From a virus (Duplodnaviria; Heunggongvirae; Uroviricota; Caudoviricetes), in IMG/VR virus record IMGVR_UViG_2778261226_000006: a stretch of 38,474 nucleotides of DNA; one strand, 5' to 3'. The notes beneath the pieces were generated by a model that did no database searches, was not told where the DNA came from, and saw nothing but the letters and a program-made list of their open reading frames with translations. Shown piece after piece: positions 4,798 to 13,987 of the stretch. The position numbers were made by a program, and so were the translations under genes. The stretch's first letter is position 1. Every line of letters starts with the position of its first letter.

Positions 4798-5624
4798 AAG
4801 AAATGCACCACGGAATTCATCATTTCCATGGGACGCCTGTCTGGGGAAGTGCTGGCGACGTTCATCGTATTGCGGTGAGCGGAGCTGGCGCTTTCGTCTC
4901 CTATGTACGACCAGATCAGATTGCGGCGTCCATTCAGCACGCTCAGGTCGTCGGCATTGATAACGGCGCATTTTCTGCATGGGTGCGTGGGCTAAAAATT
5001 AACTGGAGTGATTTTTATAAATGGCTCCTGAACTATTACCACCATCCTAAGGTCGCTTTTTTTGTCATTCCTGATGTTGTGGACGGAGGTGAACGTGACA
5101 ATGATGCCCTGATAAACGAAGTTCCGAAAATGTTCTACGGGAAGGCAACTCCCGTCTGGCATCTGCACGAGTCAATCGATCGGCTTATCGAGCTATGTCG
5201 TGAATGGCCTCGTGTCTGCTTTGGATCGTCTGGTGAATATGCGGCTATCAGAACTGCGCACTGGCATCGTCGTATGCAGGACGCTTTTGAAGCAATTTAT
5301 TGCCGACACAATTTCAAAACAGCTGTTCATGGTTTGCGCATGCTTGACGGTCGTGTGTTGGGAAATTACCCACTGGCGACTGCCGACAGTACAAATCTTG
5401 CCTGCAATGTCCCCAAATTTAATAGCAAATATCCTGAGCTGACGCGGGCTATTCAGGAGGCTGAGTATTCGCGCAATCTGACGGAAAAGGAGCTGAAAGC
5501 TGTCATTCTGAAAAACCGTTGCGCAATTTTAAAAGGTGCAATTGAAGCTGTTCGCCCACCTTCAGTTTCTGATTGGCTGTCGAATGGTTTGCAGCCTTCA
5601 CAGCTCGAACTGGAGATTGCGTAA
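4794..5624 (+). CDS. Hypothetical protein co-operonic with dam; possible TGT-fold (DpdA-like) enzyme, unverified
   Basis: 276-aa ORF overlapping dam stop (GTGA) and A start (TAATG); His-rich N-terminus; segment [12 protein letters not shown] resembles the D-S/N-G-G/A-F catalytic loop of tRNA-guanine transglycosylase-fold proteins; no C-terminal Zn CxCxxC; function assignment is a by-eye hypothesis. Confidence 0.5.
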
Positions 5625-7996
5625 TGAACTACAGCTATTCCTGGAATGCTGAGAAAAAAGCAATCAATCCTTACGTAGAGACAGAAGAGCAATCTTCAGT
5701 TTCTGCGCTTTCAAACCTGATCGCTCTGTACGCTGCCGATAACGAGCAGGAACAGCTGCGCCGCGAGGCACTGAGTGATCAGGTCTGGGAGCGTTATTTC
5801 TTTAATGAATCCCGTGATCCTGTCCAGCGCGAAATGGAGCAGGATAAGCTCATTAGTCGGGCAAAGCTGGCGCATGAGCAGCAGCGTTTTAATCCAGATA
5901 TGGTCATTCTGGCGGACGTCAATGCCCAGCCTTCCCATATCAGCAAGCCGCTGATGCAACGTATTGAATACTTCAGCAGCCTGGGCAGGCCAAAGGCTTA
6001 TTCCCGCTATTTGCGTGAGACGATTAAGCCATGTCTGGAACGGCTGGAGCATGTACGCGACTGTCAGCTATCCACTTCTTTTCGCTTTATGGCAAGCCAT
6101 GAAGGGCTGGACGGCCTGCTGATCCTGCCTGAAATGAGTCAGGATCAGGTGAAACGCCTGTCCACCCTGGTAGCTGCGCATATGAGCATGTGCCTTGATG
6201 CAGCTTGTGGCGATTTGTATGTCACCGATGACGTTAAGCCAGAAGAAATCCGCAAGACATGGGAAAAGGTGGCAGCGGAAACCCTGCGTCTGGATGTCAT
6301 CCCGCCTGCGTTTGAGCAACTCCGCCGGAAAAGAAACCGCCGTAAACCCGTGCCCTATGAACTCATTCCGGGTTCGCTGGCGCGTATGTTGTGCGCTGAC
6401 TGGTGGTACCGGAAATTATGGAAGATGCGTTGCGAATGGCGGGAAGAGCAGTTGCGTGCTGTCTGCCTGGTCAGCAAAAAAGCATCTCCCTATGTCAGCT
6501 ATGAAGCCGTGATGCATAAACGTGAGCAGCGCCGTAAGTCGCTGGAGTTTTTTCGTTCTCATGAACTGGTGAACGAAGACGGCGACACGCTGGACATGGA
6601 GGATGTGGTAAACGCCAGCAGCAGCAACCCTGCGCATCGCCGCAATGAGATGATGGCCTGTGTTAAAGGCCTGGAGCTTATCGCGGAAATGCGCGGTGAC
6701 TGCGCCGTTTTCTACACCATCACCTGTCCGTCACGTTTCCATTCCACGCTAAATAATGGCAGGCCCAACCCAACTTGGACAAATGCGACGGTAAGACAAA
6801 GCAGTGATTATCTGGTCGGCATATTTGCTGCATTTCGTAAGGCGATGCACAAAGCCGGATTGCGGTGGTATGGCGTGCGGGTGGCTGAGCCGCATCATGA
6901 CGGTACAGTTCACTGGCACCTGTTGTGTTTTATGCGCAAAAAAGACCGCCGCGCCATCACTGCATTACTGCGTAAGTTTGCCATCCGTGAAGACCGCGAG
7001 GAACTGGGCAATAACACTGGGCCGCGCTTTAAGTCTGAGTTGATTAACCCGCGCAAAGGTACGCCAACAAGCTACATCGCGAAATACATCAGTAAGAACA
7101 TTGACGGGCGTGGTCTGGCTGGCGAGATCAGCAAGGAAACGGGTAAATCTCTGCGTGATAACGCTGAATACGTTAATGCCTGGGCGTCTCTGCATCGTGT
7201 TCAGCAATTCCGCTTCTTTGGCATTCCGGGGCGTCAGGCTTACCGTGAACTGCGATTGCTGGCTGGTCAGGCGGCAAGGCAACAGGGTGACAAAAAAGCA
7301 GGTGCGCCGGTACTGGATAACCCGCGCCTTGATGCCATTCTGGCTGCAGCTGATGCTGGTTGCTTTGCCACCTACATCATGAAGCAGGGCGGCGTACTGG
7401 TTCCCCGTAAATATCACCTCATCAGAACCGCTTATGAAATCAACGAAGAGCCGACCGCCTATGGCGATCACGGTATTCGTATTTATGGCATCTGGTCACC
7501 CATTGCAGAGGGCAAGATCTGCACTCATGCAGTGAAGTGGAAAATGGTTCGTAAAGCCGTTGACGTTCAGGAGGCGGCAGCCGACCAGGGCGCTTGCGCC
7601 CCTTGGACTCGTGGCAATAACTGTCCCCTTGCTGAAAATTTGAACCAACAAGGGAAAGACAAATCAGCTGATGGGGATACCAGAACGGACATTACCCACA
7701 TGGATGACAAGGAGTTGCACGATTACCTGCACAGTATGAACAAAAAAGAGCGCCGGGAACTGGCTGCAAGGTTACGCCTGGTGAAACCGAAACGGCGTAG
7801 AGACTACAAACAGCGAATTACAGACCATCAACGACAGCAGCTCGTCTATGAACTGAAGTCCAGAGGATTTGATGGCAGCGAGAAAGAGGTCGATTTACTC
7901 CTTCGCGGCGGCAGTATTCCGTCAGGAGCAGGCCTGCGTGTCTTCTATCGGAACCAGCGTTTGCAGGAAGATGATAAGTGGCGGAACCTGTATTAA
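5624..7996 (+). CDS. A: Replication initiation protein A (rolling-circle HUH endonuclease)
   Basis: 790 aa from ATG 5624 (TAATG overlap with upstream gene); HUH-like motif VHWHLL and two-tyrosine motif YIAKYISK (Y-x3-Y); size and position match P2/186 gene A; track ORF 5573 start is a likely 5' extension. Confidence 0.85.
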
Positions 7997-8964: not shown

Positions 8965-9576
8965 ATGGATTTAGTCTTTAAAGTTCTGGCTTCGTTGGGT
9001 GGGGTGTCTTTTGTTGCATCTGGCATATTTGTTTGGATCGGGAAAGTTTATTTAGAAAGATATAAGTCGCGGCTAAACAAAGATATTGCTGAATTTCAAT
9101 CACAACTGAGTGCAACTAATGAAAGAATAAAGGCTAAGTTAGACAATTCTGTTTATGTAACGAAAGCGTATTTTGATAAGGAGTTATCAGCATATAGTCT
9201 CATTTGGAATTCGATGTTTGAAACCAGAGAAAGCGTGCTTAAGCTGAGGCCTGCGCTGGATCATGTTGACCCCAACGAACCATTTGAAGAGAGAAAATTT
9301 AGAAGGTTGAAAGTTTTTTTTGATGCATTTAACACTTTTGTTACAAGTGTTGAATCTAACAAACCGTTCATCTCACCAGAGGTTTATATAATCTTGGACC
9401 GTTTCCGGAAGGAATGCCTTTCAGAGTCAATATCGTTTAAGCATAGCGATCCAGAATTTGACGGGCAAAATTATTGGAAAGAGGCGGAGTTGAACCATAC
9501 AACCATCACCAAGCTTTTTGATGAGACGTGTGATGCAATTCGAAACAGGATGCACACATTAACTGTGGTTACGTAG
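8965..9576 (+). CDS. Membrane-anchored hypothetical protein in the tin/old position (candidate exclusion/defence gene)
   Basis: 203 aa; N-terminal hydrophobic helix VLASLGGVSFVASGIFVWIG followed by charged helical domain; AT-rich relative to phage core; own promoter and SD GGTGGGGG; located between replication gene and candidate cos. Confidence 0.6.
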   Translation: MDLVFKVLASLGGVSFVASGIFVWIGKVYLERYKSRLNKDIAEFQSQLSATNERIKAKLDNSVYVTKAYFDKELSAYSLIWNSMFETRESVLKLRPALDHVDPNEPFEERKFRRLKVFFDAFNTFVTSVESNKPFISPEVYIILDRFRKECLSESISFKHSDPEFDGQNYWKEAELNHTTITKLFDETCDAIRNRMHTLTVVT

Positions 9577-9668
9577 GTTTCCAAAAAGTCTCGATGCCCG
9601 CTTTGGAGATTGTGCATGTCTATGCCGCATGAATCCGCATGATCGTTTGAGGATCGTTTTAGCTGAGG

Positions 9669-9694
9669 CCCGCCAGGAGTGGCGGGATTTTGCT
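9669..9694 (+). terminator. Candidate terminator hairpin after the 203-aa ORF
   Basis: CCCGCC (9669-9674) / GGCGGG (9681-9686) stem with 6-nt loop, followed by ATTTTGCTT. Confidence 0.3.
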
Positions 9695-9737
9695 TATGTC
9701 ATGCAGGCGCATGAAAACCGCTACATAAAGCGGGCAG

Positions 9738-9756
9738 GCGTGGCGGGGATACGAGC
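9738..9756. other. Candidate cos site (cohesive-end region)
   Basis: GGCGTGGCGGGGA (9738-9750) matches the first 13 nt of the 186/P2 cohesive-end sequence as I recall it (GGCG[T/A]GGCGGGGAAAGCA); lies in a repeat-rich GC-richer non-coding stretch between the A-side accessory genes and the Q side, where cos sits in P2 prophages. Confidence 0.4.
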
Positions 9757-9825
9757 GCGCGCAAATATGGAAATTAGCTGCGTTTTGTTATATATAGGAG
9801 AGATATTAAAAGGGTAGGCACCACT

Positions 9826-10350
9826 ATGACTGTTTTACACCTTGTAGCAGACCACCTTGTTAAGCAGGCTAATACAACCCATAGAAAGGGGGAGGTGCAC
9901 GCAATATTAGCAGATGCATATGGTCGTTCTGCTTTTAATCGGTATTATTATGCTTGTTTTCTTAACGTCCGTGAGTTTGTTTCAACTATTGATTCCAATT
10001 GGGGCAAGGTCAAGCATGCAGATGTTCCAAAATTATTACGTGATAGTGTAAGTAGAAAGATAGAAGTTGAGCTCCAAAAATCAGAAAAAATTGGCGATAT
10101 AACTTTATGTGAATATAAATCTAAAAAGAGCTTAATACGTACTTCACTGAACAATATGGCTTCAACTATGGCATTGGCATATACAATTAGGGGAGTTGTT
10201 GATTATGAGCCGGAAATTGAGATGATATTCTGTAATGGCAGTTTTTCGATTAATAAAACATCAGTGGCTTCGGCTAAGGGGTGGCTACAAACCATTAATT
10301 CAGAAAGATCGAAGGTTACCAGAATTATGAAGGAGATTGGCTTTGTCTAA
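9826..10350 (+). CDS. Hypothetical protein, upstream gene of pair preceding the retron (candidate accessory/effector)
   Basis: 174-aa ORF from ATG 9826; overlaps the next ORF; no Walker, HNH, TM or other recognisable motif by eye. Confidence 0.6.
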   Translation: MTVLHLVADHLVKQANTTHRKGEVHAILADAYGRSAFNRYYYACFLNVREFVSTIDSNWGKVKHADVPKLLRDSVSRKIEVELQKSEKIGDITLCEYKSKKSLIRTSLNNMASTMALAYTIRGVVDYEPEIEMIFCNGSFSINKTSVASAKGWLQTINSERSKVTRIMKEIGFV

Positions 10351-11080
10351 CCAGAAAATATTATCAGAATTGTTGGTAAAATTCCCGTTTATAAAAGTTA
10401 AAGATGTAACAGATTTTATGGATACAATTCTGTTGATCATCCCAATTAACAAAATAGTACCATTGTCTGCTTCGAATAGTATAACAAAACGCCAGATATC
10501 TTTATTGGTGAAACGAATAACAGAAAAGCTAAATGTAAGAGTGTTGATTAGTTACTCACCATTTTCAGATAAAGACAATATTGAAGCGGCTTTAGTGGCG
10601 TTAGCGAGAAGTAATTTTAAAAAAGGGAAGATATCTGATTTGAATTTATCTTTCTTTGATTCGCAAAACGCAGTGCTTTATGTCTTTTGTAAAAACCTTA
10701 CATTATCAGAACGCGAGAAGTGGGAGTCGTTAGTTGTAGGGATATTAAACGGTTTTAATATAAAAGTGACTTCATTTGTATATGAGGCTAAAAATAATCC
10801 TGAACCTACAATGATGGTTATTTTAAGAGCGGCAAAAAAATGTCAGCCCTTTGATCTTCCAAGATTGTTCAGTCAACTTGATAATGGCGATTATCATATT
10901 GAATCACTTGATTGGCTGAATGGGAAGCTAGACAACTTACGTAAGAAAGGATTTTTATTAAGAAGCCATGACGGAACTTATAGAATGACATTGTCAGGGT
11001 TAGAAATAGTTCCAGTGACTAAATCTAGGCAAAGTTCTGATATAGAGAGGGTCCTTTATCTTGCACGCAAACATCTATAG
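10337..11080 (+). CDS. Hypothetical protein, second gene of pair preceding the retron (candidate accessory/effector)
   Basis: 247 aa as tracked from TTG 10337; likely start TTG 10343 with AAGGAG SD (10330-10335), implying translational coupling to the upstream ORF; alternating hydrophobic/charged N-terminal region, C-terminal segment KKGFLLRSHDGTYRMTLSGLEIV; family unknown. Confidence 0.6.
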   Translation: MALSNQKILSELLVKFPFIKVKDVTDFMDTILLIIPINKIVPLSASNSITKRQISLLVKRITEKLNVRVLISYSPFSDKDNIEAALVALARSNFKKGKISDLNLSFFDSQNAVLYVFCKNLTLSEREKWESLVVGILNGFNIKVTSFVYEAKNNPEPTMMVILRAAKKCQPFDLPRLFSQLDNGDYHIESLDWLNGKLDNLRKKGFLLRSHDGTYRMTLSGLEIVPVTKSRQSSDIERVLYLARKHL

Positions 11081-11089
11081 TGGTATATT
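11061..11089 (+). promoter_or_regulatory. Candidate sigma70 promoter for retron msr-msd-ret transcript
   Basis: -35 TTGCAC (11061-11066), 17-bp spacer, -10 TATATT (11084-11089); predicted start about 11096, coinciding with the a1 repeat. Confidence 0.45.
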
Positions 11090-11095
11090 CGCGTT

Positions 11096-11268
11096 GGTAG
11101 TGGCGTTCACGAGAGTATGCATCATGCTCATTTGTGAAGGTCGCGGACAGAATGTGCGCCTGCGAATCAGCAGTCGTTCCTTCGAAACGTCTGCTGATTC
11201 GCAGGCGTCATCAACGAAAGTTTTCATCAGCTTTGCTTAAGGATTGACCTTATGAAAACGCCACTACC
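11096..11268 (+). ncRNA. Candidate retron non-coding RNA (msr-msd)
   Basis: 12-nt perfect inverted repeat GGTAGTGGCGTT (11096-11107) / AACGCCACTACC (11257-11268) as a1/a2; GAGAG immediately after a1 (candidate branching G region); 17-bp perfect stem 11157-11173 / 11191-11207 as msd hairpin; directly upstream of and overlapping the start of the retron-type RT. Confidence 0.5.
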
Positions 11269-12229
11269 CTTATTTTTCACATTCACTGATGCCGAACAGT
11301 TTCTTAAGGCGTTGAGCACACCGCTGAGAGATAGATATTCTGCGGAACTTATTCGACTACAAGGCCTCAGGCTTCCCCCATTAGTTTCTTGGAGTATCTT
11401 GTCTGTTGCCATTGGCGTAAGCCCACAATTTATTACTTCGTTAATTAAGAATAAGTCAAAATACTATCGTGTTTTTTCTATTTCCAAAGGAAGAGGAAAG
11501 AAAAAAAGAATTATTGAAGCACCCAAGGTTAGTATAAAAATCATTCAGTCTTGGGTCGCTCATCATTTAAGCATTAATCATAGTCTTGGCATAAGTGAAA
11601 ATGCATATGCTTTTATCCCAGGTAAGAATGGGATATATGAAGCTGCAAGTAAACATTGTGGTGCAAAATGGATCCTGTCTATTGATTTAAGAGATTTTTT
11701 CCATACGATCACTTCAGATATAGTGATTTCAACATTAGTTGAAATCGGATATAGAGCCGATCAGGCTGCTAAATTGAGTGAATTACTTACCTTGAATCAG
11801 AGACTTCCGCAAGGTGCGCCAAGTAGCCCTGTTATCTCAAATTTAGTATTTAGGTCAACTGACTTAAAGATTAATGAGTTGATTTCTAATACGGGTATTA
11901 AATATACTAGATATGCTGATGATTTGACCTTCTCCGGTGATGATGAAACATTTGATATCGAGGAACTTAAAGATAATGTTGTAGAGTTGTTACTATCTGA
12001 TAATTGGGTTGTGGCTGAGGAAAAACTCAGAATAGCTAGGATTCCTAATAGATTAAAAGTACATGGTTTTCTAGTTCATGAAAATAAACCTAGATTGACT
12101 AAAGGCTATCGAAATAAAATTAGAGCATATAAACATTTATTGAGGACTGGGAAAATAGTTGAGAAGGATTTTGATAAAATTAAAGGGCATGTTAACTATA
12201 GTGAATATATTGATAGATTGAATGAGTAA
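11252..12229 (+). CDS. ret: Retron-type reverse transcriptase
   Basis: 325 aa; RT motifs LSIDLRDFFHTIT, LPQGAPSSPVISNLVF and YTRYADDLTFSG (YADD catalytic box), plus RLKVHGFLV in the position of the retron VTG motif; N-terminal Y..F.I.K..G..R.I..P pattern; close by-eye similarity to Ec86-type retron RT motifs. Confidence 0.9.
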   Translation: MKTPLPLFFTFTDAEQFLKALSTPLRDRYSAELIRLQGLRLPPLVSWSILSVAIGVSPQFITSLIKNKSKYYRVFSISKGRGKKKRIIEAPKVSIKIIQSWVAHHLSINHSLGISENAYAFIPGKNGIYEAASKHCGAKWILSIDLRDFFHTITSDIVISTLVEIGYRADQAAKLSELLTLNQRLPQGAPSSPVISNLVFRSTDLKINELISNTGIKYTRYADDLTFSGDDETFDIEELKDNVVELLLSDNWVVAEEKLRIARIPNRLKVHGFLVHENKPRLTKGYRNKIRAYKHLLRTGKIVEKDFDKIKGHVNYSEYIDRLNE

Positions 12230-12246
12230 GGGCCTAGCCCTTACTC
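12224..12246. terminator. Bidirectional hairpin spanning the convergent ret and Q stop regions
   Basis: GAGTAAGGGC (12224-12233) / GCCCTTACTC (12237-12246), 10-bp perfect stem, 3-nt loop; ret stop TAA 12227-12229 lies in the left arm, Q stop at 12249-12251 just beyond. Confidence 0.4.
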
Positions 12247-12248
12247 AT

Positions 12249-13280
12249 TTAATTTAATGTGTATATTCCAAAGGATATGATTTTATCTCCTATCCAGTTA
12301 TTTAACTCTTCTAGTCTTCTCTGTAATGGTATTAACTCATTCCTCACAAAAACAAGGCTTGCCTTCTCCACATCCCCAAAACCCCCAACATTATTAGGCA
12401 TTATCCCCATCATTTGTGGGGGTACACGATGCGCCGCCATCATGTCGTCCCGGCTTACGTTCTTGATGTTCAGAAACTCATCCTTCGCCGCGACTTCTGA
12501 TAACGGGATAATCTGAAGTCCGTCCTTTTTGCCGTTAGGAGAGTACATAAACAGATTGCGGAAGTTACCTGGTCCTTTGGCGCTTTTCATTGCATTGCGG
12601 AGGTTGTTCACATCCTCCTGGTTTTGTGCGGCGTCGGTCATGTACATGATGAAGCCTGCATGACTGCCGTTGATGTAATACTTCCGGCGGAACAGCGTGG
12701 CGGACTCGTTGAGCAGGGCTGACGGAATGGCAGAAAGATAACCGGGCAGGCCGTAGATCTCCTGGTTGATGTCCGGTTCCATCAGATGAAAAATGCTGCC
12801 TTTCGTGAACTGATACGGCTGGGTTGTCATACCGTATTGCACAAACCAGTAGGTATCCAGGTCTAACCCGCGTCGGGTGTATTTTGCCAGAGCAGGCTCA
12901 AGGGCGATAACTTCACCAAACCGGTTCGTGCGTTTCTCCAGGTAGGCGTTACCAAATACCAGATAGTCCTGCACAAAACGTGAAAAAGCCTGTTGGCTGA
13001 GCAGCGGGTGAGGGATGTAGGTGCTGGTCAGAATGTTGCATTTCACCGCAATCGGTGAGCTGTGATGCACGGCGGCGCGGAAGGTTCGCGCCAGTCCGTC
13101 AAAGCTGACGGGAGGCTCATACCAGCGATCTGTCTGTACGCATTCCACATAGTCCAGCAGTTCGCGGCGGTCAAGTACTGGAATGGGATCACCGAAGCTG
13201 AAAGCCTCAGCCGTTGGAGCGTTGCCTGGTTTTGTGTTGTGATCAACCTTTACCAGTTTGATGTTTTTATGTTTGCTCAT
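12249..13280 (-). CDS. Q: Portal protein (P2 gpQ-like)
   Basis: 343 aa, essentially the size of P2 Q; position before terminase large subunit on the same strand; ATGA overlap with upstream gene. Confidence 0.85.
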   Translation of the reverse strand: MSKHKNIKLVKVDHNTKPGNAPTAEAFSFGDPIPVLDRRELLDYVECVQTDRWYEPPVSFDGLARTFRAAVHHSSPIAVKCNILTSTYIPHPLLSQQAFSRFVQDYLVFGNAYLEKRTNRFGEVIALEPALAKYTRRGLDLDTYWFVQYGMTTQPYQFTKGSIFHLMEPDINQEIYGLPGYLSAIPSALLNESATLFRRKYYINGSHAGFIMYMTDAAQNQEDVNNLRNAMKSAKGPGNFRNLFMYSPNGKKDGLQIIPLSEVAAKDEFLNIKNVSRDDMMAAHRVPPQMMGIMPNNVGGFGDVEKASLVFVRNELIPLQRRLEELNNWIGDKIISFGIYTLN

Positions 13281-13987
13281 TCTGCCAGCTCCTCGTTAGC
13301 AAGAGGCCATTCGCACATAAACAGCATTCCCCAGTCCTCTGCTGATAATTCTTTTTTCATATCATTCAGCCAGTTATCAGTAAACAACATTGCTCCTGAT
13401 GCTACTGCATCATCAGCGGTGAATACCATGCGGGTTACACTGTTGTTTCTGCTTAGCTTTTTATATTCCTGCCATGCCTCCGGGTTAGGGCTGGGAGTGG
13501 TGTAGTAGGTGGCGTGGTGGTGTGCGTGCAAGGACATTCCTTTGGCGAGAGTAATCATATTTCTCGGTGATTCAGCCCAGGCATACTCTGACACGTAGAC
13601 ATTTCCACTGAGTGCGGCGGCGTGGCACTTGAGGTCGATAAAATAAATGACCGCACCATTGGGAAACTCCAGATATGTTTTGCCAGATTTTATTTTTCCA
13701 GTGCGCGTATAAGCTGCGGTCTGGCTTAAAAATGCTGACACATAGGCTTTGACTGCCTGCGCTGATGCGGTGCTGCAGCAGAGGAAAATCTGGTTACGCC
13801 CGGTATGCAGTGCATCGATCAGGGCCTCATAGGCAAAAAAGAAATCCGCTCCTGCCTGGCGCATTTTTGTGAGTAAACGGTTTCTACTCTTTGGGCCAGT
13901 GTTCCACTCATACTGGTAATCAAAGAAAGTGCTATCCACCGGAAGTCCCGCGATAGTCATGAGGTTAGTTGGGATTGGGGGCATCAA
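13277..13987 (-). CDS. Terminase large-subunit ATPase-domain paralog (truncated, diverged)
   Basis: 236 aa; aligns by eye to the central region of the adjacent P protein (AGADFFFAYEALIDALHTGRNQIFL vs IGATFYFAHEALIDALLTGRNQIFL; FPNGAVIYF vs LPNGATLYF; NVYVSEYAW vs NLYLDEYFW); lacks P's N-terminal ~150 aa and C-terminal nuclease region; ATGA overlaps at both ends. Confidence 0.7.
   Translation of the reverse strand: MMPPIPTNLMTIAGLPVDSTFFDYQYEWNTGPKSRNRLLTKMRQAGADFFFAYEALIDALHTGRNQIFLCCSTASAQAVKAYVSAFLSQTAAYTRTGKIKSGKTYLEFPNGAVIYFIDLKCHAAALSGNVYVSEYAWAESPRNMITLAKGMSLHAHHHATYYTTPSPNPEAWQEYKKLSRNNSVTRMVFTADDAVASGAMLFTDNWLNDMKKELSAEDWGMLFMCEWPLANEELAE

What the first reader, a model, noticed from the sequence alone, without database searches (positions are those of the whole stretch)
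9826..12246. Retron between the candidate cos site and portal gene Q, with two upstream ORFs of unknown family as the only possible effectors
The RT (11252-12229) has retron-type motifs. A promoter (-35 TTGCAC, 17-bp spacer, -10 TATATT) places the transcript start at a 12-nt repeat (11096-11107) that is perfectly complementary to 11257-11268, as a1/a2. Between them lies a 17-bp perfect stem (11157-11173 / 11191-11207), as expected for msd. No ORF can follow ret, because Q converges 20 bp downstream. Any protein partner must therefore be the co-oriented overlapping pair upstream (174 and 247 aa), which shows no TM segment, Walker motif, HNH or TOPRIM by eye. This may be a retron with an undescribed effector module, or a retron next to an independent two-gene system.
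Basis: partly seen in the sequence, partly recalled or inferred. Interest (0 to 1): 0.8.

Follow-up and report, generated by a model that had tools for sequence, protein, structure and literature searches.

The report
Known type IX retron in P2 prophage
This is an intact copy of an already described anti-phage system, the type IX retron (a toxic HEPN RNase, a winged-helix partner protein, a non-coding RNA and a reverse transcriptase), carried as cargo next to the packaging site of a P2-like prophage; it is ordinary, not a new effector module.

Summary
The RT ORF, the 12-nt a1/a2 inverted repeat, the long msd hairpin, a promoter just upstream of a1, and convergence with portal gene Q are all present.

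The two upstream ORFs are not an unknown family. They are the defining accessory genes of type IX retrons:
- 174-aa ORF: PADLOC HEPN_IX, E = 1e-52.
- 245/247-aa ORF: PADLOC HTH_IX, E = 2e-61.
- RT: PADLOC RT_IX, E = 4e-129.

All three proteins align over essentially their full length to the solved Retron-Kva2 complex (PDB 36ht), at 60%, 51% and 64% identity. Every catalytic residue and almost every residue that contacts msDNA is conserved.

The 173-nt ncRNA has the same length as the Kva2 ncRNA. Its helices are backed by compensatory changes across 15 loci from several phyla.

The identical locus in E. coli MFDS1016424 (RT WP_088551309.1) is already listed in the retron IX catalogue of a 2026 preprint.

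Three 2026 preprints give the mechanism. The msDNA, WH protein and RT cage a HEPN RNase. A phage nuclease or a phage DNA-binding protein disturbs the msDNA, and the freed HEPN cuts tRNA and rRNA, aborting the infection.

Verdict: already known, low interest.

The parts
9738..9756 (.). Candidate cos cohesive-end sequence of the P2-like prophage (context only, not part of the retron).
   Evidence: GGCGTGGCGGGGATACGAG here versus P2 cosL GGCGAGGCGGGGAAAGCAC. Homology to a retron-free sister prophage ends at 9764, 8 nt to the right of this sequence.
9826..10350 (+). HEPN RNase effector (toxin), 174 aa. Catalytic H64 is at nt 10015-10017 and R122 at nt 10189-10191.
   Evidence: PADLOC HEPN_IX 1.4e-52. 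PDB 36ht 'Retron-Kva2 HEPN' 5e-67 over residues 1-174. H10, Q14, Y40-42, H64 and R122 are conserved.
10343..11080 (+). Winged-helix / KH-KH-HTH protein (WH), 245 aa from TTG 10343. The ORF finder's alternative start at 10337 gives 247 aa. It bridges RT-msDNA and HEPN and acts as an antitoxin.
   Evidence: PADLOC HTH_IX 1.5e-61. PDB 36ht 'Retron-Kva2 WH' 3.6e-78. The msDNA-contact residues R50, Q51, K57, D190, N193, D197, R200, K201 and R207 are conserved. The 245-aa form is the annotated one.
11061..11089 (+). Candidate promoter of the ncRNA-RT transcript: -35 TTGCAC (11061-11066), TGg (11081-11083), -10 TATATT (11084-11089). The inferred transcript start is at or near 11096.
   Evidence: Read directly from the sequence. 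It was not called by the consensus scan. In 14 of 15 homologous loci a TAnnnT hexamer ends 5-7 nt upstream of a1; 11 of those have the TGn extension. This is an inference; the start has not been mapped.
11096..11268 (+). Retron ncRNA (msr-msd), 173 nt, the same length as the Kva2 ncRNA (G1-C173).
   Evidence: Minimum free energy -81.3 kcal/mol, z = -8.1 against shuffled sequences. 93.6% of cells are paired, against about 40% in the slid-register controls, and 24 of 35 pairs show compensatory changes. The numbering matches the Kva2-like locus L084.
11096..11107 (+). a1, the 5' arm of the terminal stem.
   Evidence: Perfectly complementary to 11257-11268. The end-anchored stem is kept in all 15 loci, with 7 different sequences.
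11113..11129 (+). msr stem-loop 1 (ncRNA 18-34). In Kva2 this hairpin is bound by the RT thumb domain.
   Evidence: 4 of 7 pairs are compensatory and 98% of cells are paired. Hayashi et al. describe the Kva2 stem-loop G18-C34.
11140..11215 (+). msd template (ncRNA 45-120). The predicted msDNA is its reverse complement: 76 nt, trimmed to about 71 nt.
   Evidence: By homology with Kva2, where G45-C120 is reverse transcribed. The predicted msDNA was computed. All 18 msDNA positions named in Hayashi et al. that I checked by eye carry the same base here: dG1, dA5, dT6, dA8, dC9, dG10, dG16, dT31, dG33, dA34, dG36, dT50, dC58, dG59, dC60, dA61, dA63 and dG68.
11157..11207 (+). msd hairpin (stem-loop 2) with the conserved tip CCTTCGAA.
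   Evidence: 22-nt arms, 95% complementary. 19 of 22 pairs are compensatory across 15 loci. The loop bases are invariant.
11216..11235 (+). Stem-loop 3, G-AAAG...CTTT-G. This is the probable priming stem, with opposing G121 (11216) and branching G140 (11235).
   Evidence: G121, A122-A124, U137-U139 and G140 are invariant in all 15 loci. Hayashi et al. place the Kva2 branching G at G139 and the opposing G at G121. For this window the assignment is an inference.
11257..11268 (+). a2, the 3' arm of the terminal stem. It overlaps RT codons 2-6.
   Evidence: In every locus examined, a2 lies inside the 5' end of the RT gene.
11252..12229 (+). Retron reverse transcriptase, 325 aa. YADD is at nt 11912-11923.
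   Evidence: PADLOC RT_IX 4.2e-129; the next best model scores 6e-67. PDB 36ht RT 1.5e-145 over residues 1-325. R73, F75 and Y221-D224 are conserved. It is identical to WP_088551309.1.
12214..12256 (.). Inverted repeat covering the stop codons of RT and Q. It is a candidate bidirectional terminator.
   Evidence: 20-nt arms, 90% complementary, 3-nt loop. The terminator scan did not list it because the T run is weak.
12249..13280 (-). Portal gene Q (context).
   Evidence: Pfam Phage_portal 1e-17.

Best explanation
Window 9826-12229 is an intact type IX retron, an orthologue of Retron-Kva2, Retron-Sen3 and Retron-Yin1. It sits as low-GC cargo in the cos-proximal defence hotspot of a P2-like prophage.

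1. The ncRNA (11096-11268) is transcribed, probably from its own extended -10 promoter as well as by read-through from the operon.
2. The RT binds msr stem-loop 1 and primes from the 2'-OH of a guanosine at the internal stem 11216-11235.
3. The RT copies 11215 down to 11140 into a hairpin msDNA of about 71-76 nt.
4. RT, msDNA and the WH protein assemble around HEPN dimers into a higher-order complex that blocks access to the composite H64/R122 RNase site.
5. A phage factor cuts or remodels the msDNA. In the homologues this factor is a lambda-Exo-like nuclease, a PD-(D/E)XK nuclease, or the T5 D5 DNA-binding protein.
6. HEPN is released and cleaves tRNA anticodon loops and rRNA.
7. Translation stops and the infection aborts, which protects the lysogen population.
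For: Shown here:
- All three proteins hit the type IX-specific PADLOC models.
- They match the three protein chains of PDB 36ht over essentially their full length, at 60%, 51% and 64% identity to the near-identical Kva2-like locus L084.
- The catalytic residues (HEPN H64 and R122; RT Y221-D224) and 10 of 13 published WH interface residues are conserved.
- The gene order and the 171-nt spacing between WH and RT are conserved in the Enterobacterales loci. The 8-bp HEPN/WH overlap is kept in most of them.
- The ncRNA is 173 nt, as in Kva2. It folds de novo into a1/a2 plus three or four hairpins, z = -8.1.
- Covariation is strong: 24 of 35 pairs are compensatory and 0 of 500 shuffles reach the observed value. 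The a1/a2 stem is maintained with 7 different sequences.
- The predicted msDNA carries the conserved tip TTCGAAGG, and the same base as Kva2 at all 18 contact positions I checked.
- The identical locus in E. coli MFDS1016424 is listed in Table S1 of Carabias et al..

From the literature:
- Defence, toxicity, structures and triggers are described in 10.64898/2026.07.14.738597, 10.64898/2026.07.14.737667 and PMC13405049.
- The type was defined in PMC7736814.
- The gpA-gpQ cos-proximal hotspot was described in PMC9122126.

Context:
- GC content is 35.9% in the retron and 50.8% in the window.
- A sister prophage that is 99% identical up to 9764 lacks the retron.
Against: - Nothing has been tested experimentally on this exact variant. 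It is only 51-64% identical to Kva2, so its phage range and trigger could differ.
- Three WH interface residues differ from Kva2: N54L, Y134I and L138F.
- The three preprints disagree on the trigger (nuclease cleavage versus HTH-protein binding) and on the assembly geometry (sheet, ring or asymmetric particle). They are not peer reviewed.
- Rfam has no matching family, so the ncRNA identification rests on my own alignment of 15 loci.
Confidence: 0.93

Rival explanations
1. A retron with a previously undescribed two-protein effector module.
For: Pfam, NCBIfam and PHROGs give no hit for either protein. RefSeq annotates both as 'hypothetical protein'.
Against: PADLOC HEPN_IX scores 1.4e-52 and HTH_IX 1.5e-61. 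The solved Retron-Kva2 HEPN and WH chains match at 5e-67 and 3.6e-78. Mestre et al. 2020 describe exactly this architecture. The locus is in a published type IX list.
Confidence: 0.01
2. A two-component retron (ncRNA + RT) that merely lies beside an independent HEPN/WH toxin-antitoxin pair.
For: In Kva2 the WH protein alone can largely neutralise HEPN toxicity, so the pair has toxin-antitoxin-like behaviour. The ncRNA-RT unit appears to have its own promoter.
Against: The order HEPN-WH-ncRNA-RT, with the same 171-nt spacing before the RT, is kept in P2 prophages, a P4-like island, ICE-like regions and chromosomal islands. It is also kept, with a different spacing, in an Aquipseudomonas locus. 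In the homologues, a WH deletion, an RT YADD mutation and deletion of the msDNA loop each abolish defence, and all four components form one complex. The WH residues that read the msDNA tip are conserved here.
Confidence: 0.03
3. Sub-question on priming. The alternative is the canonical retron architecture assumed by the reader: the a1/a2 stem (11096-11107 / 11257-11268) is the priming stem and the branching G lies next to a1, rather than priming occurring at the internal stem 11216-11235.
For: a1/a2 is strongly conserved by compensation. Some distant type IX loci have a G right after a1. Two of the three preprints describe the ncRNA simply as canonical.
Against: In this window the base after a1 is C13 (then A14), and the base before a2 is A161, so there is no opposing G-G pair there. 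Canonical priming would give an msDNA of about 117 nt, whereas the measured msDNAs of the homologues are about 55-71 nt. cDNA sequencing in Kva2 starts near C120, and G121/G139 were assigned as the opposing and branching G. G-AAA...UUU-G is invariant in all 15 loci.
Confidence: 0.2
4. A decayed, non-functional remnant of a type IX retron.
For: None specific. One E. coli copy has a pseudogenised neighbouring 62-aa ORF.
Against: All three ORFs are full length with every catalytic residue intact. The three proteins and the ncRNA are identical in another complete E. coli genome. The exact RT sequence is indexed in 90 blocks of the public assembly collection.
Confidence: 0.04

Closest known systems
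Retron-Kva2 (Klebsiella variicola), type IX retron; PDB 36ht; Hayashi et al. and Hibshman et al., 2026 preprints
   Same: - Same four components in the same order.
- Protein lengths are 174, 245 and 325-327 aa.
- The ncRNA is 173 nt.
- HEPN H64 and R122, RT YADD 221-224, the WH residues that read the msDNA, the msDNA tip and the G-AAAG/CUUU-G stem are all conserved.
   Different: - Identity is only 60% (HEPN), 51% (WH) and 64% (RT).
- There is one extra nucleotide in the loop of stem-loop 3.
- WH differs at N54L, Y134I and L138F.
- The genomic context is a P2-like prophage rather than a SIR2-containing island.
- This variant has not been tested experimentally.
Retron-Sen3 (Salmonella enterica subsp. 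arizonae) and Retron-Yin1 (Yersinia intermedia), type IX; Carabias et al. 2026
   Same: - Same family.
- Sen3 residue numbering (H64, D223/D224, D197/R200/K201/R207) coincides with this locus.
- A 71-nt msDNA is expected.
- The window's RT (WP_088551309.1) is listed in their Table S1.
   Different: The ring assembly and the B14T nuclease trigger were shown only for those two systems.
Retron-Eco1 (Ec86), type II-A
   Same: Its RT is the next closest solved structure (7e-33). According to Hayashi et al., the HTH domain of its effector resembles WH domain 3. It shares the general logic of an msDNA-held toxin.
   Different: Its effector is an N-glycosidase/NDT protein, not a HEPN RNase. It has a single accessory gene and canonical priming next to a1/a2.
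P2 old/tin locus and the gpA-gpQ cos-proximal defence hotspot (Rousset et al. 2022, PMC9122126)
   Same: Variable anti-phage cargo lies next to cos, between replication gene A and portal gene Q. Retrons are among the reported cargos.
   Different: Here the retron lies on the Q side of cos, in what is a 167-bp gap in P2. P2's old and tin lie on the A side.

Membership tests
Type IX retron (Mestre et al. 2020) | RT belongs to the type IX retron RT clade and has a YADD active site. | tested here: met
   PADLOC RT_IX 4.2e-129 across the whole profile; the next best model (RT_II-A) scores 6e-67. Kva2 RT 1.5e-145. Y221-A-D-D224 present.
Type IX retron (Mestre et al. 2020) | The first upstream gene encodes the cluster 1740_1 HEPN protein, whose non-canonical active site is formed by a distant His and Arg. 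| tested here: met
   HEPN_IX 1.4e-52. Kva2 HEPN 5e-67. H64 and R122 are present. An Rx4H at residues 20-25 exists here but is not conserved in Kva2.
Type IX retron (Mestre et al. 2020) | The second gene overlaps the first by about 8 bp and encodes a protein with a C-terminal winged-helix domain. | tested here: met
   HTH_IX 1.5e-61. Kva2 WH 3.6e-78. The overlap is 8 bp with the TTG 10343 start.
Type IX retron (Mestre et al. 2020) | A structured msr-msd ncRNA lies between the WH gene and the RT gene. | tested here: met
   173 nt at 11096-11268. Fold z-score -8.1. Covariation: 24 of 35 pairs compensatory, 0 of 500 shuffles as high. The terminal stem is kept in all 15 loci. There is no Rfam family to compare against.
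Type IX retron (Mestre et al. 2020) | The msDNA hairpin tip is read by conserved WH residues (D197, R200, K201, R207, D190, N193). | tested here: met
   All six residues are conserved. The predicted msDNA has dT31, dG33, dA34 and dG36, as in Kva2.
Type IX retron (Mestre et al. 2020) | The locus produces msDNA and assembles an RT-msDNA-WH-HEPN complex. | not testable with these tools
   This needs expression, nucleic-acid gels and co-purification.
Type IX retron (Mestre et al. 2020) | Abortive-infection defence that depends on both RT and HEPN activity. | not testable with these tools
   Shown for Kva2 and Sen3 only.
Type IX retron (Mestre et al. 2020) | The locus is already catalogued as type IX. 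| tested here: met
   WP_088551309.1 (E. coli MFDS1016424) appears in Table S1 of Carabias et al.. The proteins and the ncRNA of that locus are identical to the window.
Canonical retron ncRNA (priming at the a1/a2 stem) | The branching G lies immediately 3' of a1, with an opposing G immediately 5' of a2. | tested here: not met
   The base after a1 is C13 (then A14), and A161 lies before a2. Instead, an invariant G...G pair flanks the internal stem at 11216 and 11235. The actual branch point was not testable.
P2-like cos-proximal defence hotspot (Rousset et al. 2022) | Variable cargo lies between replication gene A and portal gene Q, adjacent to cos, in a P2-like prophage. | tested here: met
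   The gene order is A (5573-7996), DinI, the candidate cos site (9738-9756), the retron, Q, then P. A sister prophage has only 155 bp between the end of its cos-region match and Q. The hotspot definition is quoted.
HEPN-MNT type toxin-antitoxin pair | The HEPN partner is a minimal nucleotidyltransferase. | tested here: not met
   The partner is a KH-KH-HTH protein (HTH_IX). It gives no nucleotidyltransferase hit in Pfam or PADLOC.

The most novel reading that the evidence does not exclude
Type IX retrons as a whole, including this copy, may use an internal priming stem (invariant G-AAA...UUU-G, window 11216-11235) instead of the a1/a2 stem. In that reading the covarying a1/a2 duplex only clamps the RNA ends. 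Because a2 covers RT codons 2-6 and a small hairpin covers the RT Shine-Dalgarno sequence, the folded ncRNA could also throttle RT translation. My 15-locus comparison extends the internal-priming claim of one preprint, made for Kva2 only, across several phyla. It adds no direct evidence.
Probability: 0.5. Interest if true: 0.3.

Novelty: already known. Interest (0 to 1): 0.1.

Why it matters
It matters little as a discovery. The system type was defined in 2020, standard defence-annotation HMMs detect it, a structure has been solved, three 2026 preprints give a mechanism, and this exact E. coli locus is already listed in a published catalogue.

The practical value is as annotation:
- RefSeq still labels the HEPN and WH genes 'hypothetical protein'.
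- The locus shows a type IX retron carried by a P2-like phage on the Q side of cos.
- The comparative ncRNA alignment gives independent support for the helices and for the unusual internal priming stem.

Tried and rejected
- **Rfam:** an E-value scan of 10800-11500 gave only chance-level hits (microRNA hairpins, a CRISPR repeat). No retron msr family matched, so Rfam neither helps nor contradicts.
- **Pfam, NCBIfam and PHROGs:** these libraries have no model for the HEPN or WH proteins.
- **First genome-contig scan:** a scan with the single RT protein found nothing.
- **Second genome-contig scan:** Only L001-L006 were usable as distant type IX loci. The closer loci came from the look-up of encoding contigs.
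- **MAFFT alignment of the ncRNAs:** it mis-registered a1/a2 in the distant sequences. I therefore counted that stem end-anchored in a script and left it out of the count of structure pairs.
- **Consensus promoter scan:** I kept the promoter only because of its positional conservation.
- **Link between the retron and the extra terminase-domain gene downstream of Q:** rejected. The Pantoea P2-like locus has the retron without that gene.
- **Structure prediction and fold search:** not run. The sequence matches to solved chains were already unambiguous.


Full report
**Observation**

- The RT ORF is 11252-12229, 325 aa. It matches Pfam RVT_1 and has YADD at residues 221-224.
- The a1/a2 pair, 11096-11107 and 11257-11268, is a perfect 12-nt inverted repeat.
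- The central hairpin is longer than reported: 22-nt arms at 11157-11178 and 11186-11207, with one mismatch.
- Portal gene Q (12249-13280, minus strand; Pfam Phage_portal) converges on the RT, with 20 nt between the stop codons.
- A 20-nt-arm inverted repeat covers both stop codons.
- The proposed promoter (TTGCAC, 17-nt spacer, TATATT) is in the sequence. A consensus scan missed it because the -35 element matches only 3 of 6 positions. It is an extended -10 promoter (TGg-TATATT). In 14 of 15 homologous loci, from Enterobacterales to Rhodobacteraceae and Anaerolineales, a TAnnnT hexamer ends 5-7 nt before a1. I therefore accept the promoter as likely but unmapped.

**What the upstream ORFs are**

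PADLOC's retron models identify all three proteins as type IX components:

| Protein | PADLOC model | E-value |
|---|---|---|
| 174-aa ORF | HEPN_IX | 1.4e-52 |
| 245/247-aa ORF | HTH_IX | 1.5e-61 |
| RT | RT_IX | 4.2e-129 (next best retron type 6e-67) |

A sequence search of the PDB finds entry 36ht. Its chains 'Retron-Kva2 HEPN', 'Retron-Kva2 WH' and 'Retron-Kva2 Reverse Transcriptase' match at 5e-67, 3.6e-78 and 1.5e-145, each over essentially the whole protein.

Mestre et al. 2020 (PMC7736814) defined type IX as two genes upstream of the retron module: a HEPN protein lacking the canonical Rx4-6H histidine, then a gene overlapping it by about 8 bp that encodes a C-terminal winged-helix protein. 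That is this locus. With a start at TTG 10343 the overlap is exactly 8 bp, an AAGGAG Shine-Dalgarno sequence sits 9 nt upstream, and the product is 245 aa, as in Kva2. This 245-aa form is the one annotated in public genomes. Pfam, NCBIfam and PHROGs have no model for either accessory protein. This explains the 'hypothetical protein' labels and why nothing was visible by eye.

**Functional residues**

I compared the window with locus L084, whose HEPN differs from the PDB Kva2 chain at only 2 residues.
- Identity is 60% (HEPN), 51% (WH) and 64% (RT).
- HEPN H10, Y40-42, H64 and R122 are conserved. Q14 matches the PDB Kva2 chain; L084 has L at that position.
- RT R73, F75 and Y221-D224 are conserved.
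- WH R50, Q51, K57, L87, D190, N193, D197, R200, K201 and R207 are conserved.
- Only WH N54L, Y134I and L138F differ.

**The ncRNA**

The stretch from a1 to a2 is 173 nt, the same as the Kva2 ncRNA (G1-C173). The residue numbers quoted by Hayashi et al. (G18, C34, A35, G44, G45, C120, G121) fall on the same bases here.

De novo folding gives the terminal a1/a2 stem, an msr hairpin (11113-11129), the long msd hairpin, a short stem at 11216-11235 and a small hairpin over the RT Shine-Dalgarno sequence. The minimum free energy is -81.3 kcal/mol, z = -8.1.

I collected 14 further loci and aligned the ncRNAs. For stem-loops 1-3:
- 93.6% of cells are standard pairs, against about 40% when the partner is slid by 1-3 columns.
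- 24 of 35 pairs show changes on both sides.
- 0 of 500 shuffles reach the observed values.

Counted from the two ends, the a1/a2 stem is maintained in all 15 loci with 7 different sequences. The msd loop CCTTCGAA is conserved: five of its eight bases (T83, C85, T86, C88 plus nearly invariant T87, G89) are invariant or nearly so across all 15 loci.

**Priming site**

In this window no G flanks that stem: C13 and A14 follow a1, and A161 precedes a2.

Hayashi et al. sequenced the Kva2 cDNA. They concluded that G45-C120 is copied, that G139 and G121 at the ends of stem-loop 3 are the branching and opposing guanosines, and that the 76-nt product is trimmed to 71 nt. Sen3 msDNA is also 71 nt. Canonical priming would give about 117 nt.

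In my alignment G121, AAA, UUU and the 3' G (G140 here, window 11235) are invariant in all 15 loci. Invariance fits a sequence-specific priming site but is not covariation evidence.

The predicted msDNA is the reverse complement of 11140-11215. At all 18 positions named as contacts or landmarks in Kva2 that I checked, it carries the same base. I rate internal priming at about 0.8 for this locus, by homology.

**Mechanism (inferred from homologues)**

In Kva2, Sen3 and Yin1, the following results hold:
- HEPN alone is toxic.
- WH, or RT-ncRNA-WH, neutralises that toxicity.
- RT YADD mutants, HEPN H64/R122 mutants, a WH deletion and deletion of the msDNA loop each abolish defence.
- RT, msDNA, WH and HEPN form higher-order assemblies that occlude the HEPN dimer's active site.

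Reported triggers are a lambda-Exo-like nuclease of Bas24, the PD-(D/E)XK nuclease B14T of Bas14 (both cut the msDNA), and T5 D5, which binds the msDNA. Activated HEPN cuts tRNA anticodon loops and rRNA, causing growth arrest. Because every residue and nucleotide implicated is conserved here, the same mechanism is the best explanation. No step of it has been shown for this variant.

**Context**

The window is a P2-like prophage. The gene order is:
1. integrase
2. replication gene A (5573-7996)
3. a DinI-like gene
4. a 203-aa ORF of unknown function
5. the candidate cos site
6. the retron
7. Q
8. a 236-aa terminase-ATPase paralogue
9. P

.

The candidate cos site, 9738-9756, matches P2 cosL at 12 of its first 13 bases. 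In P2 only 167 bp separate cos from Q. An E. coli sister prophage is 99.2% identical up to window position 9764 and then has 155 bp before Q.

Homology between the two prophages resumes at 86% within Q and at 97% from 13982. The retron therefore lies in a 4.2-kb mosaic segment (9765-13981), with a GC content of 35.9% against 50.8% for the window.

The gpA-gpQ interval next to cos is the known P2 defence hotspot, and retrons are among its reported cargos (PMC9122126). Related type IX retrons sit next to a P2 portal gene in Pantoea, in a P4-like island beside smpB in a Citrobacter sedlakii-type locus, and in ICE-like or defence islands elsewhere.

**Prior knowledge of this exact locus**

- Only 3 of 5,426 complete E. 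coli genomes carry the whole locus.
- The exact RT sequence is indexed in 90 blocks of the public assembly collection, and named cluster members come from E. coli and Salmonella enterica.
- In E. coli MFDS1016424 the three proteins and the ncRNA are identical to the window.
- That strain's RT, WP_088551309.1, is listed among retron IX homologues in Table S1 of Carabias et al..

**Verdict**

The interpretation as a retron whose partners are the upstream gene pair is right. The suggestion of an undescribed effector module is wrong. This is an already known, already catalogued type IX retron, and interest is low.

Noticed in passing
window 13277-13987 (-): A 236-aa ORF sits between portal gene Q and the full terminase gene P. 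It is an ATPase-domain-only paralogue of the large terminase: 34% identical to gpP residues 142-368, Pfam Terminase_6N 3e-17, phrog_3746 1e-85. It is present in every contig examined that carries the identical RT. It is absent from P2, from the sister E. coli prophage and from the Pantoea P2-like locus. Its function is unknown; it could be a decoy, a regulator or a remnant.
   Followed up: partly
window 9765-13981: Compared with a sister prophage that is 99% identical on both sides, this 4.2-kb segment is mosaic. It contains the retron, a Q allele only 86% identical, and the extra terminase-domain ORF. The left breakpoint lies 8 nt to the right of the candidate cos 19-mer.
   Followed up: partly
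window 8965-9576 (+): A 203-aa ORF lies on the A side of cos. It matches phrog_26391 (unknown function) and has no PADLOC, Pfam or NCBIfam hit. It is present in some retron-bearing prophages and absent from others. It may be further variable hotspot cargo.
   Followed up: partly
window 9629-9817 (+): A 62-aa ORF (phrog_28685) spans the candidate cos site 9738-9756, so it would be split in the packaged linear genome. RefSeq marks the equivalent ORF in E. coli MFDS1016424 as a pseudogene with an internal stop.
   Followed up: no
window 11239-11268: In the folded ncRNA, the RT Shine-Dalgarno sequence (AAGGA, 11239-11243) lies in a small AAGG/CCUU hairpin, and RT codons 2-6 form a2. In every locus examined, a2 lies inside the 5' end of the RT gene. 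This hints at coupling between ncRNA folding and RT translation.
   Followed up: no
window 9883-9900 (HEPN residues 20-25): The HEPN has an RKGEVH sequence that fits the canonical Rx4H pattern. The His is not conserved in Kva2 (RKGAQT), and the functional residues are H64 and R122. It is probably fortuitous.
   Followed up: yes
L085 (Citrobacter sedlakii-type locus), L087/L088 (Yersinia, Pectobacterium): Close relatives of this retron (75-88% RT identity) sit in other mobile contexts. One is a P4-like island beside smpB, with a DUF927 primase, AlpA and an integrase. Others are ICE-like regions with ArdC and TraG/TrwB genes. The same cassette therefore moves between P2 phages, P4-like satellites and conjugative elements.
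   Followed up: no
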